This document shows positions 1,301-1,640 of a DNA stretch of 4,797 bases, one piece after another. Source of the DNA: a virus (lineage: Duplodnaviria; Heunggongvirae; Uroviricota; Caudoviricetes); the IMG/VR virus record IMGVR_UViG_2124908012_000287, one strand, 5' to 3'. Within the stretch, counting starts at the first letter, position 1; each line of letters starts with the position of its first letter. The notes under the pieces are model-generated. The model had not been told where the DNA came from, ran no database searches, and worked only from the letters and a program-made list of their open reading frames with translations. The translations under genes were made by a program, and so were the position numbers.

Positions 1301-1640
1301 TAGCTAATCAACAAAGCTAAGGTTAGTAATTAAGGAGTTCTCCACGGGTGAGGTGGAGTGCGTGCGCCGGACACGGGTGCGCATCCGGAACTGACAGTTT
1401 ACTGAAAGGATATTTCCCTGAAAAGTCAGACCATAACGCGAAAGCGCATGGCGAGGTAGCTGGTTCATAGATAGCCTGTCGTTAAATTTTCGTCGACCGT
1501 GCGCTTCCGGTTGTGGCAACCCGCGAAATGGCGCGGCGGTAAGTATGGCGGGGTTATTCCTTCCCCGTTGAGGACACCGGGTTGTCAGGTTGACCATACG
1601 CTTAAGTGACAACCCCGCTGCAACGCCCTCTGTTATCAAT

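What the first reader, a model, noticed from the sequence alone, without database searches (positions are those of the whole stretch)
1301..1640. GC-rich, ORF-free, hairpin-dense 340-bp spacer between ydfC and DicF, with a candidate 40-codon ORF behind a strong RBS
Coding potential vanishes here (stops in all plus frames; the 111-aa minus ORF looks antisense and Arg-rich), yet GC content is high and there are several stems, for example GGGTTGTCA (1579..1587) with TGACAACCC (1607..1615), and CCGCG (1521..1525) with CGCGG (1532..1536). This is consistent with a structured processing substrate (RNase III/RNase E) that releases DicF, but the extent of structure may mean more than a passive linker, such as a second RNA product or a cis-regulatory element. 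Separately, a near-consensus Shine-Dalgarno TAAGGAG (1331..1337) is followed 10 nt later by GTG 1348, opening a 40-codon frame to TAG 1468..1470 (VRWSACAGHGCASGTDSLLKGYFPEKSDHNAKAHGEVAGS). That could be an unannotated small protein or a leader peptide.
Basis: seen in the sequence. Interest (0 to 1): 0.55.

Follow-up and report, generated by a model that had tools for sequence, protein, structure and literature searches.

The report
Conserved folded RNA domain before DicF
The "spacer" upstream of the E. coli small RNA DicF is not a small-protein gene: it holds a conserved, cloverleaf-like folded RNA domain that matches no Rfam family, is followed by a transcription terminator in every copy examined, sits at the head of early operons of many prophages and of phages P1/P7, and has no known function.

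Summary
The window is the Qin prophage dicB operon of E. coli K-12. The hairpins, SD-like motif and 40-codon frame are at the stated coordinates.

The ORF idea fails. In most relatives codon 11 is a stop, the start codon or SD is lost, and substitutions show no codon periodicity on either strand.

The real feature is a non-coding RNA.
- **Core:** 1510-1624 folds into a four-way junction (P1, P2, Px-P3, P4) with a candidate pseudoknot. It has 39 pairs, 95.6% paired in 55 distinct sequences, with 12 pairs showing compensatory changes against 4.4 in shuffles.
- **Databases:** Rfam 15 has no match. A model built from HK022 put RNAs does not hit it.
- **Distribution:** spacer sequence matches 4326 of 5426 complete E. 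coli genomes. The core also occurs in other Enterobacterales prophages and about 45 nt downstream of the C1-controlled ban promoter of P1/P7.
- **Context:** an intrinsic terminator (DicF or a DicF-like hairpin) followed within about 8-60 nt in all 15 diverse copies examined.
- **Qin-type extra:** a long, nearly invariant helix (1431-1516) precedes the core.

Function is unproven. My best guess (about 0.35) is cis control of read-through at the adjoining terminator. Rivals are a processing or stability domain for DicF, or a stand-alone RNA that binds a host factor.

The parts
1301..1430 (+). Module A: hairpin-rich, mosaic 5' part of the spacer, present only in Qin-type relatives. Local hairpins include CUCCAC 1340-1345 / GUGGAG 1353-1358, CCGGA 1367-1371 / UCCGG 1384-1388 and CUGAC 1391-1395 / GUCAG 1425-1429.
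   Evidence: Alignment A6 shows whole-segment replacements, a 29-nt deletion and 1-nt indels among relatives. The hairpins appear in the MFE. No covariation test was done on this part.
1331..1337 (+). SD-like TAAGGAG.
   Evidence: Present in the sequence. It is replaced by CATTAAT, AATGGAG or absent in several relatives. In L086-type relatives this stretch lies next to the start of an opposite-strand gene.
1348..1470 (+). 40-codon GTG frame; judged not a gene.
   Evidence: The full length is specific to the K-12 allele (shared with L073). Most relatives have TGA at codon 11 (GGGTGAGCA against K-12 GGGTGCGCA), and the start codon is lost in several. There is no codon periodicity.
1304..1639 (-). 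111-aa antisense ORF; judged not coding. Its last 54 codons are called 'hypothetical protein' in a minority of annotated records.
   Evidence: The frame is broken or shifted in relatives. Variable sites are flat at 70/72/71 over codon positions. There is no Pfam match. Sporadic automatic calls appear.
1431..1516 (+). Module B: long helix P0. 1439-1454 pairs with 1493-1509 (15 bp). It can be extended by CCAUAAC 1431-1437 pairing with GUUGUGG 1510-1516 to about 22 pairs with small bulges, which competes with P1. The apical part (about 1457-1480) is variable.
   Evidence: RNAalifold consensus on 37 Qin-type sequences: 15 pairs, nearly invariant, 0 compensatory changes. The MFE of 1425-1520 gives the extended helix at -35.6 kcal/mol. 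It is absent from cdtI-type and P1/P7 copies.
1510..1624 (+). Core domain: a cloverleaf-like four-way junction plus pseudoknot, conserved across lambdoid prophages and P1/P7.
   Evidence: Covariance model R1 gives 94 hits of 96-151 bits. The isolated domain folds into the same junction in the Qin, cdtI and Izhakiella copies. No Rfam family matches at E<=10.
1510..1624 (+). P1 closing stem: 1510-1517 (GUUGUGGC) with 1617-1624 (GCUGCAAC).
   Evidence: Inner pair is C-G 40, U-G 8, U-A 6. Pairs 1514/1620 and 1515/1619 switch between wobble and Watson-Crick. In P1/P7 an unrelated sequence appears, by eye, to close the junction. Four copies carry a different 5' flank.
1521..1536 (+). P2 hairpin: CCGCG 1521-1525 / CGCGG 1532-1536, with loop AAAUGG.
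   Evidence: 95.3% of cells are paired. There are only one-sided changes and no compensatory change.
1537..1579 (+). Px: CGGU 1537-1540 with ACCG 1576-1579. It encloses the pseudoknot strand and P3.
   Evidence: Found de novo by RNAalifold. U1540-A1576 becomes C-G in P7-type copies (2 distinct sequences), and 99.5% of cells are paired.
1549..1567 (+). P3 hairpin: CGGGG 1549-1553 / CCCCG 1563-1567, with a variable loop that always carries a UCCUU/CUCC-like motif.
   Evidence: Many different stems occupy the same position, for example CUGGG/CCCAG, CAGGUG/CACCUG and CCGGG/CCCGG. Two pairs show double changes.
1580..1614 (+). P4 hairpin: 1580-1587 with 1607-1614, plus P4b 1588-1590 with 1600-1602.
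   Evidence: 6 of 8 pairs show compensatory changes, for example GGGUAACCA/UGGUUACCC in Izhakiella and GUUGCCA/UGGCAAC in P1/P7.
1543..1599 (+). Candidate pseudoknot: GUAUGG 1543-1548 with CCAUAC 1594-1599 (in the loop of P4).
   Evidence: 100% of cells are paired. One pair occurs as U-A, U-G and C-G; the other five never vary. Scans that left the tested positions free found no variants. It is therefore plausible but only weakly tested.
1625..1640 (+). Single-stranded AU-rich linker GCCCUCUGUUAUCAAU. The mature DicF 5' end follows it.
   Evidence: dicF is annotated at 1641-1693 in window coordinates. RNase E dependence of the 5' end comes from the literature (PMC5069750, PMC9438474). The linker is unpaired in the folds. 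Its length varies from about 8 to 60 nt among copies.
1641..1693 (+). DicF sRNA with its intrinsic terminator hairpin. This is the terminator partner of the module in Qin.
   Evidence: Rfam RF00039 scores 76.7 bits at 1642-1693.

Best explanation
Shown: the spacer is non-coding. Positions about 1431-1624 encode a conserved RNA leader. Its core (1510-1624) is a four-way junction (P1, P2, Px-P3, P4) with a candidate loop/internal-loop pseudoknot.

Shown: the core is a mobile module in operons controlled by the immunity repressor. It lies after ydfABC in Qin. It lies about 285 nt after a PL-like promoter in phage cdtI. It lies about 45 nt after the -10 element of the C1-controlled ban promoter in P1/P7. 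An intrinsic terminator hairpin followed within about 8-60 nt in all 15 diverse copies examined.

From annotation and literature: in Qin it is the 5' body of the DicF precursor, and RNase E cutting in the linker 1625-1640 separates it from DicF.

Inferred (about 0.35): the nascent folded domain acts in cis on the transcription complex. It would set how much transcription stops at the adjoining terminator, giving the short RNA with DicF, and how much reads on through the long untranslated stretch into dicB/kil, exonuclease or ban. It would occupy the position that nutL or putL has in other lambdoid phages, but with an unrelated fold.
For: - **Non-coding:**
- **Fold:** 39 pairs, 95.6% paired, 12 pairs with double changes against 4.4 +/- 1.4 in shuffles (0 of 500) and 0-5 in slid controls. 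The same junction is the MFE of the isolated Qin, cdtI and Izhakiella domains.
- **Conserved unpaired nucleotides:** J2/3 and the P4 loop are near-invariant across P1/P7 and lambdoid copies whose flanks are unrelated. This fits binding to a conserved host machine.
- **Position:** always on the early transcript controlled by the immunity repressor.
- **cdtI leader:** an 11/12 sigma-70 promoter match, followed by + strand ORFs of at most 39 aa before the core. No N-like family was found in the neighbouring proteins tested.
- **Terminator:** one follows in all 15 diverse representatives. In P1/P7 it is a strong, unrelated hairpin 8 nt after the fold, at the head of an operon of about 5 kb.
- **Downstream:** long untranslated stretches follow (about 175 nt from DicF to dicB here; about 650 nt from the promoter to the first tRNA gene in P1). 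These would otherwise be exposed to termination.
- **Host range:** limited to Enterobacterales.
Against: - There is no experiment, and no published read-through data could be retrieved.
- The put covariance model finds nothing at the element, so any similarity is positional only.
- There is one copy per phage and none on the PR side.
- In Qin it lies about 850 nt from the promoter, after three ORFs.
- The spacing to the terminator varies from 8 to 60 nt.
- I found no conserved alternative pairing with the terminator. The terminator stem covaries (GGUGGCA/UGCCACC in L053) while the element's GGCGGUAAG stays fixed.
- The DicF terminator does terminate in vivo, since the 53-nt DicF exists (literature).
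- A constitutive antiterminator would make the adjoining terminator pointless.
- The P1 layout (promoter, short leader, fold, terminator) fits a stand-alone small-RNA gene equally well.
- P2, most of Px and five of six pseudoknot pairs never vary, so they are untested.
- Retrieval patterns fixed parts of J2/3 and the P4 loop, and the alignment was fitted to the model.
Confidence: 0.35

Rival explanations
1. Processing and stability domain of the DicF precursor; this is the first reader's idea in refined form. The compact fold acts as punctuation. It leaves the AU-rich linker as the only accessible RNase E site and so fixes the DicF 5' end. It may also protect the upstream ydfABC mRNA 3' end. 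The long helix 1431-1516 may be an RNase III site.
For: The DicF 5' end (1641) lies 16 nt after the fold in an unpaired AU-rich stretch. RNase E dependence is published (PMC5069750, PMC9438474). The module is followed by a DicF-type sRNA (variable 5' region plus a conserved terminator stem) in all lambdoid copies examined. A helix of about 22 pairs is predicted and nearly invariant.
Against: P1/P7 keep the fold but have only 8 nt and no seed region before the terminator, so there is nothing to release. Near-invariance of loops and junctions across unrelated phages exceeds what a generic structural block needs. The long helix is absent from cdtI-type and P1/P7 copies. The published RNase III cut is 3' of DicF.
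Confidence: 0.25
2. Stand-alone immediate-early non-coding RNA. The fold is the functional body of an RNA that ends at the terminator and is separated from DicF by RNase E in lambdoid phages. It would act in trans by binding a conserved host factor, for example as a tRNA-like decoy or through the pyrimidine-rich L3 loop pairing with ribosome-binding sites.
For: The P1/P7 layout resembles a monocistronic small-RNA or tRNA gene: promoter, about 25-nt leader, cloverleaf, UCCA, short trailer, strong terminator. The topology is a cloverleaf with almost no unpaired junction nucleotides. N(1-3)-CC(C)A follows P1 in the cdtI, P1/P7, L031, L023, L053 and L083 copies. L3 always carries UCCUU/CUCC although its stem covaries. 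A terminator partner is what any sRNA gene needs.
Against: ARAGORN finds no tRNA or tmRNA, and no tRNA or tmRNA family scores at E<=10. CCA is missing in the commonest (Qin) type and in the Salmonella, Erwinia and Serratia types. No stable species or partner is documented in the papers I could read. Four copies have lost the 5' strand of P1.
Confidence: 0.22
3. Ligand-sensing riboswitch whose expression platform is the DicF terminator.
For: The architecture is aptamer-like: a four-way junction plus pseudoknot, with covarying stems and invariant junction and loop nucleotides, directly upstream of an intrinsic terminator.
Against: There is no conserved mutually exclusive pairing between P1 or the junction and the terminator, and the spacer varies from 8 to 60 nt. 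In Qin it lies after three ORFs. No ligand is suggested by the gene context.
Confidence: 0.08
4. Protein-coding: the 40-aa + strand ORF, or the 54-111-aa minus-strand ORF that some automatic annotations call.
For: A strong SD sits 10 nt before GTG 1348. A long open minus frame is present in many relatives, with sporadic 'hypothetical protein' calls.
Against: Most relatives have a premature TGA at codon 11, and some have lost the start codon or SD or carry indels. There is no codon periodicity on either strand and no Pfam family. RNA-level covariation covers the same bases.
Confidence: 0.02
5. No function of its own: a decayed remnant of phage sequence that hitch-hikes with DicF.
For: Qin is a defective prophage. 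The flanks are mosaic, and some copies have lost the P1 5' strand.
Against: The element is retained with compensatory changes in active phages (P1, P7, cdtI, 2H10, HannyBb, mEp460-like, Salmonella F1055) and in several genera.
Confidence: 0.05

Closest known systems
HK022 put RNAs (putL/putR), RNA-only processive antiterminators
   Same: Both are cis-encoded structured RNAs on early transcripts of temperate Enterobacterales phages. In cdtI and P1/P7 the element is promoter-proximal, and no N-type protein gene is seen at the usual place. Sequence is highly conserved.
   Different: The fold is unrelated: about 115 nt in a four-way junction plus pseudoknot, against about 70 nt in two hairpins. 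The put covariance model gives no hit. There is one copy per phage, not two. A terminator followed in every copy examined. Activity is untested.
Lambda nutL / N-leader region (boxA-boxB plus an RNase III site in the N leader)
   Same: Same map position, on the early-left transcript just beyond the repressor gene. The Qin type has a long helix that could be an RNase III substrate.
   Different: There is no boxA/boxB pair with an N-type protein, since no N-like family was found among the neighbouring proteins tested. The element is far larger and shows RNA covariation of its own.
DicF RNA (Rfam RF00039) and the biogenesis of 3'UTR-derived or intra-operonic sRNAs, including MicL-type stem-loops that direct RNase E
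   Same: It is physically the 5' part of the DicF precursor. RNase E cleaves in the linker right after it. A structure next to a cleavage site is a known way to fix sRNA ends.
   Different: It lies outside the RF00039 model. It is conserved where there is no DicF seed (P1/P7). It is much more conserved and complex than known processing guides.
tRNA-like structures and RNase P substrates of phages (C4 RNA precursor of P1/P7, P4 CI RNA; eukaryotic mascRNA-type punctuation). These comparisons come from my own knowledge, not from a tool result.
   Same: Cloverleaf topology with an 8-bp closing stem. CCA-like triplets follow the stem in some copies. RNase E cuts downstream, as in tRNA precursors. 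It sits in an operon with real tRNA genes in P1.
   Different: tRNA, tmRNA and Rfam detectors find nothing. There is no canonical T-loop or D-loop, and CCA is not conserved.
Four-way-junction riboswitch aptamers such as SAM-I (general knowledge)
   Same: The size, the junction-plus-pseudoknot design and a terminator downstream are shared.
   Different: There is no overlapping expression platform, no ligand clue and no sequence or structure match.

Membership tests
HK022 put antiterminator RNA | Two-hairpin fold of about 70 nt with the conserved put sequence motifs, detectable by a covariance model | tested here: not met
   Model R2 was built from 7 put sequences. It recovers HK639 putL (96 bits) and HK022 putL and putR (92 and 46 bits). 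It gives no hit at E<=10 at the element in the window or in 11 other loci.
HK022 put antiterminator RNA | Copies downstream of both early promoters (PL and PR) | tested here: not met
   There is one place per phage record and one model hit per locus, always on the repressor or PL side.
HK022 put antiterminator RNA | Promotes read-through of terminators in cis and depends on the RNA polymerase beta' zinc-binding domain | not testable with these tools
   This needs transcription assays and rpoC mutants.
Lambda-type nut site with N protein | boxA-boxB RNA next to a gene for an arginine-rich N-type antiterminator | tested here: not met
   Between the PL-like promoter and the element in cdtI there are only + strand ORFs of at most 39 aa. 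Among the nine neighbouring proteins and the minus-strand ORF tested, no N-like Pfam family was found.
DicF RNA (RF00039) | Match to the DicF covariance model | tested here: not met
   RF00039 matches 1642-1693 only (76.7 bits). Nothing in 1290-1641 matches any Rfam family at E<=10. The element is a neighbour of DicF, not part of the family.
Transcriptional riboswitch | Conserved aptamer-like core with covarying stems | tested here: met
Transcriptional riboswitch | Expression platform: mutually exclusive pairing between aptamer and terminator | tested here: not met
   The spacer varies from 8 to 60 nt. The terminator stem covaries independently of the element's GGCGGUA. No shared alternative helix appears in 15 diverse copies. 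This was inspected by eye.
Transcriptional riboswitch | Specific ligand binding | not testable with these tools
   -
tRNA / tmRNA-like RNA | Recognised by tRNA or tmRNA detectors | tested here: not met
   ARAGORN finds nothing in the window or at the element in 5 loci. No tRNA or tmRNA family scores at E<=10.
tRNA / tmRNA-like RNA | Cloverleaf topology with a 3' NCCA | tested here: inconclusive
   The cloverleaf is supported. CC(C)A lies 1-3 nt after P1 in the cdtI, P1/P7 and several other copies. It is absent in the Qin type (GCCCU) and in the Salmonella, Erwinia and Serratia types.
RNase III substrate | About two turns of nearly continuous double-stranded RNA, cleaved in an rnc-dependent way | tested here: inconclusive
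   A helix of about 22 pairs with small bulges is predicted at 1431-1516 and is nearly invariant but without covariation. Cleavage is not testable here.
Small protein or leader peptide gene | Start codon, frame and length kept in orthologous sequences, with codon-position bias of substitutions | tested here: not met

The most novel reading that the evidence does not exclude
The 115-nt four-way-junction/pseudoknot domain would be a new class of phage RNA that binds a conserved host machine directly. One option is an RNA-only modifier of RNA polymerase (antitermination or attenuation) unrelated to put. The other is a tRNA-like decoy made immediately after derepression. If so, the classical sRNA DicF would be a 3' appendage of this RNA that RNase E cuts off. 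The domain would be present in prophages of roughly 80% of complete E. coli genomes and in P1/P7.
Probability: 0.3. Interest if true: 0.85.

Novelty: new variant of a known kind. Interest (0 to 1): 0.6.

Why it matters
DicF is one of the oldest known bacterial small RNAs, and the dicB operon is still used to study prophage-host interplay. Papers call the roughly 570 nt around dicF simply a "long untranslated region".

A conserved folded domain with no Rfam family sits directly 5' of DicF in K-12. It is shared with P1/P7 and with many Shiga-toxin-associated and other prophages. This gives a concrete object to test for three things: how read-through into the toxic dicB/kil genes is set, how DicF ends are defined, and whether temperate phages carry a second kind of RNA-only transcription control.

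It also removes a false small-protein candidate. The sporadic "hypothetical protein" calls on the opposite strand are probably spurious as well.

Tried and rejected
- **Rfam 15:** permissive thresholds on the window and on the P1 leader found nothing for the element. Gathering-threshold scans of ten other loci also found nothing.
- **put homology:** HK022 putL shares a 9-mer (GCGCGGCGG) and an 8-mer (ACCAUGCG, P1-type copies) with the element. The first lies largely in put's variable stem, and the put model gives no hit.
- **RfaH ops site:** the element has GGCGGTAAG. From what I recall of the ops consensus (GGCGGTAG), position 8 should be G, not A. P7 also has C at the T I recall as essential. 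RNA covariation argues for an RNA-level role. I rejected this, but it was not tested experimentally.
- **Antiterminator pairing:** I considered the element's GGCGGUA pairing with the terminator 3' strand UACCGCC. The terminator covaries while the element does not, and P1/P7 have a different terminator. Rejected.
- **tRNA/tmRNA:** ARAGORN was negative.
- **Pseudoknot covariation:** three scans of the viral collection allowed non-canonical bases in the 3' strand and returned nothing. Those positions are invariant rather than tested. The third pattern also required two changes at once by mistake.
- **Mutual information:** it was dominated by lineage and mosaic linkage and was not informative.
- **Duplex search between spacer and downstream region:** a long-sequence duplexfold was meaningless.
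- **Promoter scan of the spacer:** none found on either strand.
- **Chance pattern matches:** L029 (Dehalococcoidia) and L071 were discarded.
- **Papers I could not read:** Faubladier et al. 1990, Faubladier & Bouché 1994, King et al. 2011 and Murashko & Lin-Chao 2017 are not held. Whether the 1990 or 1994 papers already noted the conserved upstream sequence could not be checked.
- **Pas sRNA preprint:** it concerns late-region sRNAs and is unrelated.
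Full report
**Where the window is from.** The window is the Qin cryptic prophage of E. coli K-12. The gene order is dicA 193-600, ydfA 767-922, ydfB 924-1052, ydfC 1082-1300, the spacer 1301-1640, dicF 1641-1693, dicB 1869-2057, ydfD, a truncated exonuclease gene and IS2. 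RefSeq annotates nothing in the spacer of MG1655. Rfam finds DicF at 1642-1693 (76.7 bits) and a weak STnc100-like match at 1691-1900 (34 bits, below threshold). It finds nothing in 1290-1641 even at E<=10.

**Checking the observation.**
- The + strand has no ORF above 40 aa in the spacer, and the 111-aa minus ORF exists.
- GC is 0.53-0.57 across 1350-1650, against 0.35-0.51 in windows outside it.
- Folding energy is only modestly unusual: z = -2.57 for 1301-1700, -0.61 for 1495-1641 and -2.0 for the isolated core.
- Thermodynamics alone would therefore not make the case.

**Coding potential.** The spacer matches 4326 of 5426 complete E. coli genomes, with up to 8 copies per genome, and 64 phage records. 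I aligned 37 Qin-type copies.
- The 40-codon frame is full length only in the K-12 allele, shared with L073. Most others have TGA at codon 11 (GGGTGAGCA where K-12 has GGGTGCGCA).
- GTG is GTA, GTT or GTC in several copies. The SD is missing in others. One copy has a 29-nt deletion across the start and another a +1 indel.
- The minus-strand frame is open in many copies but broken or shifted in others.
- Variable sites are spread evenly over codon positions for both candidate frames (70/72/71).
- The minus ORF has no Pfam family.
- A 54-codon piece of it is called "hypothetical protein" in a minority of records. I regard those as automatic calls.

**What is conserved.** The spacer is mosaic.
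- The last third (about 1510-1632) recurs at 88-89% identity in phage cdtI, Stx2c-converting phages, 2H10 and others.
- It recurs at 82-86% in a Salmonella phage and in a record labelled as an Actinobacillus phage.
- It recurs at 76-82% in P7 and P1, where the P1 record carries a misc_feature "dicF-like region".
- A motif scan of one genome per species found it only in Enterobacterales: Escherichia, Shigella, Citrobacter, Serratia symbiotica, Trabulsiella, Erwinia and Izhakiella.
- Three further hits are in metagenome bins labelled as other phyla. Their element sequences match E. coli- or P1-type copies, so I suspect mis-binned enterobacterial contigs. One more hit was a chance match.
- A covariance model built from eight copies found 94 instances (96-151 bits) in the fetched loci, giving 55 distinct sequences.

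**The fold (window coordinates).**

| Helix | 5' arm | 3' arm |
|---|---|---|
| P1 | 1510-1517 | 1617-1624 |
| P2 | 1521-1525 | 1532-1536 |
| Px | 1537-1540 | 1576-1579 |
| P3 | 1549-1553 | 1563-1567 |
| P4 | 1580-1587 | 1607-1614 |
| P4b | 1588-1590 | 1600-1602 |
| Candidate pseudoknot | 1543-1548 | 1594-1599 (P4 loop) |

- On the 55 distinct sequences, 95.6% of cells are standard pairs.
- 12 of 39 pairs show changes on both sides, against 4.4 +/- 1.4 in shuffles (0 of 500) and 0-5 when partners are slid by 1-3 columns.
- Support is strong for P4 (6 of 8 pairs) and for P3, where many different stems occupy the same position.
- P1 has fair support. The inner pair occurs as C-G, U-G and U-A, and two pairs switch between wobble and Watson-Crick. 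P1/P7 appear, by eye, to close the junction with an unrelated sequence.
- Px and the pseudoknot rest on a single covarying pair each.
- P2 has no compensatory change.
- The isolated Qin, cdtI and Izhakiella domains each fold into this junction as their MFE, with helix probabilities mostly above 0.85 in Qin. The P1 and Serratia copies do not.

**Caveats on the fold.** My retrieval patterns fixed parts of J2/3 and the P4 loop. The alignment was fitted to the model. The sequences are related and mosaic, so cells are not independent events. Scans that allowed other bases at pseudoknot positions found none. Four copies carry a different 5' flank that removes the P1 5' strand.

**The part specific to Qin-type copies.** Upstream of the core, 1439-1454 pairs with 1493-1509. 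RNAalifold predicts 15 pairs here, almost invariant and without any compensatory change.
- The helix can continue with CCAUAAC 1431-1437 pairing to GUUGUGG 1510-1516, giving about 22 pairs with small bulges.
- This uses the 5' strand of P1. The long helix and closure of the junction are therefore alternatives.
- That makes it a possible switch or RNase III site. Neither is tested.
- Module A (1301-1430) is hairpin-rich but evolves by segment replacement.

**Context.** In every annotated case the domain lies on the early transcript controlled by the immunity repressor.
- Qin-like phages: after dicA and ydfABC.
- cdtI and 2H10: after cI. In cdtI there is an 11/12 promoter match, then a leader of about 285 nt with + strand ORFs of at most 39 aa.
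- Others: after a DicA-like repressor and before kil and exonuclease genes, and after a repressor in Salmonella F1055 and in HannyBb.
- P1/P7: about 45 nt after the -10 element of the C1-controlled ban promoter, ahead of tRNA genes, tciABC and ban.
- There is one copy per phage.
- In all 15 diverse representatives, an intrinsic terminator hairpin follows within about 8-60 nt.
  - In lambdoid copies this is DicF or a DicF-like RNA with a conserved stem (GGCGGUA...UACCGCC plus a U run) and variable 5' and loop regions.
  - In P1/P7 it is an unrelated strong hairpin (GCCCAUCUUCGGGUGGGC plus U6) only 8 nt after the fold.

**Comparison with known elements.**
- A model built from seven put RNAs recovers put sites but not this domain.
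- No N-type protein family is found in the neighbouring proteins tested.
- ARAGORN and the tRNA and tmRNA families are negative.
- An ops-like GGCGGTA and an antiterminator pairing with the terminator were considered and rejected.
- The literature I could read calls the region a long untranslated region. It places the RNase E-dependent DicF 5' end and the RNase III-dependent 72-nt 3' end without describing any upstream structure (PMC5069750, PMC9438474).
- The original 1990 and 1994 papers were not available.

**How it most likely works.**
- *Shown:* a conserved, independently folding non-coding domain. In the copies examined it travels with a terminator at the head of repressor-controlled early operons. 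In Qin it is the 5' body of the DicF precursor.
- *Inferred:* its action. I favour (about 0.35) a cis effect on the transcription complex that sets termination against read-through at the adjoining terminator and through the following untranslated stretch. Three things point that way: the position, the invariant unpaired nucleotides, and the strong terminator placed before long operons.
- *Against:* there is no put similarity, no second copy, variable spacing and no alternative pairing. A constitutive antiterminator would also make the adjoining terminator pointless.
- *Rivals:* a processing or stability role for DicF (about 0.25) fits Qin but not P1/P7. A stand-alone RNA that binds a host factor, possibly tRNA-like (about 0.22), fits the P1 layout. 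A riboswitch (about 0.08), coding (about 0.02) and a functionless remnant (about 0.05) are less likely.

**Verdict.** The finding is real but mis-aimed. The ORF is an accident of the K-12 allele. The structure is a conserved RNA domain with no Rfam family, no description in the papers I could read, and an unknown function. I class it as a new variant of a known kind, namely the structured leader RNAs of phage early operons.

Noticed in passing
window 1694-1900: The dicF-dicB spacer gives a sub-threshold Rfam STnc100 match (34.4 bits, gathering 47). It is closed by a perfect 14-bp long-range stem, UGAAUUUUGUGAUG 1702-1715 with CAUCACAAAAUUCA 1839-1852. That duplex lies where the published RNase III cut makes the 3' end of the 72-nt DicF (about 1713). 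The RNase III site is therefore probably here and not in the upstream spacer.
   Followed up: partly
L007 (phage P1, NC_005856) about 2700-2740; same in P7 (L008): About 60 nt after the element's terminator, the P1/P7 ban leader contains a tmRNA-tag-like template. UAAAUGCAAACGAUGAUCUGAUGAUGGUAGCGGCCUAA reads A-N-D-D-L-M-M-V-A-A-stop from a GCA resume-like codon. Rfam tmRNA_permuted scores 24 bits (E 0.007, below gathering), and ARAGORN calls no tmRNA. One search of the held library found no description.
   Followed up: partly
L003 2624-2665, L009, L017, L026, L028, L030 (downstream of the element): These are DicF-like RNAs that RF00039 does not recognise. They share the terminator stem (GGCGGUA...UACCGCC plus U5) but have different 5' and loop sequences. 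The Salmonella, Erwinia, Serratia, Izhakiella and Trabulsiella versions carry a 30-40-nt insertion inside the hairpin. It contains AGGAG(G), a 9-13-nt spacer and AUG, which looks like a ribosome-binding site. A further conserved block (CACAACAGAnAAGAGCAUC...) follows the terminator.
   Followed up: no
L086 2623-2901 (+ in the locus, opposite to the element); equivalent to just left of window ~1320: In several relatives ydfC is replaced by a 92-aa gene (MDKKQIEALQ...) on the opposite strand. Its start codon lies about 12 nt from module A, so a leftward promoter may sit inside the spacer. By eye I saw only a weak TTTTCA-17-TAAACT match on the minus strand, and the scan found none.
   Followed up: partly
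window 1380, 1389, 1449: Three substitutions are specific to the K-12 allele; L073 shares the first two. They are C1380 (removes the TGA and creates the 40-codon frame), A1389 (breaks a G-C pair that extends the 1367-1388 hairpin) and U1449 (turns a C-G pair of the long helix into U-G). The 115-nt core itself is identical to six other copies.
   Followed up: yes
window 3101-4797: The window is not collinear with MG1655 after the IS2 fragment. The stretch 3797-4797 is a minus-strand 'beta strand repeat-containing protein' gene. In K-12 records it lies beside another IS2 copy about 180 kb from Qin (ER1709: 3,595,852 against 3,777,967). The window therefore spans either an IS2-mediated rearrangement or an assembly join.
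   Followed up: partly
window 1554-1562 (loop of P3) and homologous loops: The P3 loop always carries a pyrimidine-rich, anti-Shine-Dalgarno-like motif (UCCUU, CUCC or CCUCC), although the stem below it covaries freely. It could be a pairing or protein-binding surface.
   Followed up: no
L003 40-228 (phage cdtI): C4 antisense RNA and isrK family matches (68 and 60 bits) lie next to the antirepressor gene on the other side of the cdtI immunity region. This is an immI-type module unrelated to the finding.
   Followed up: no
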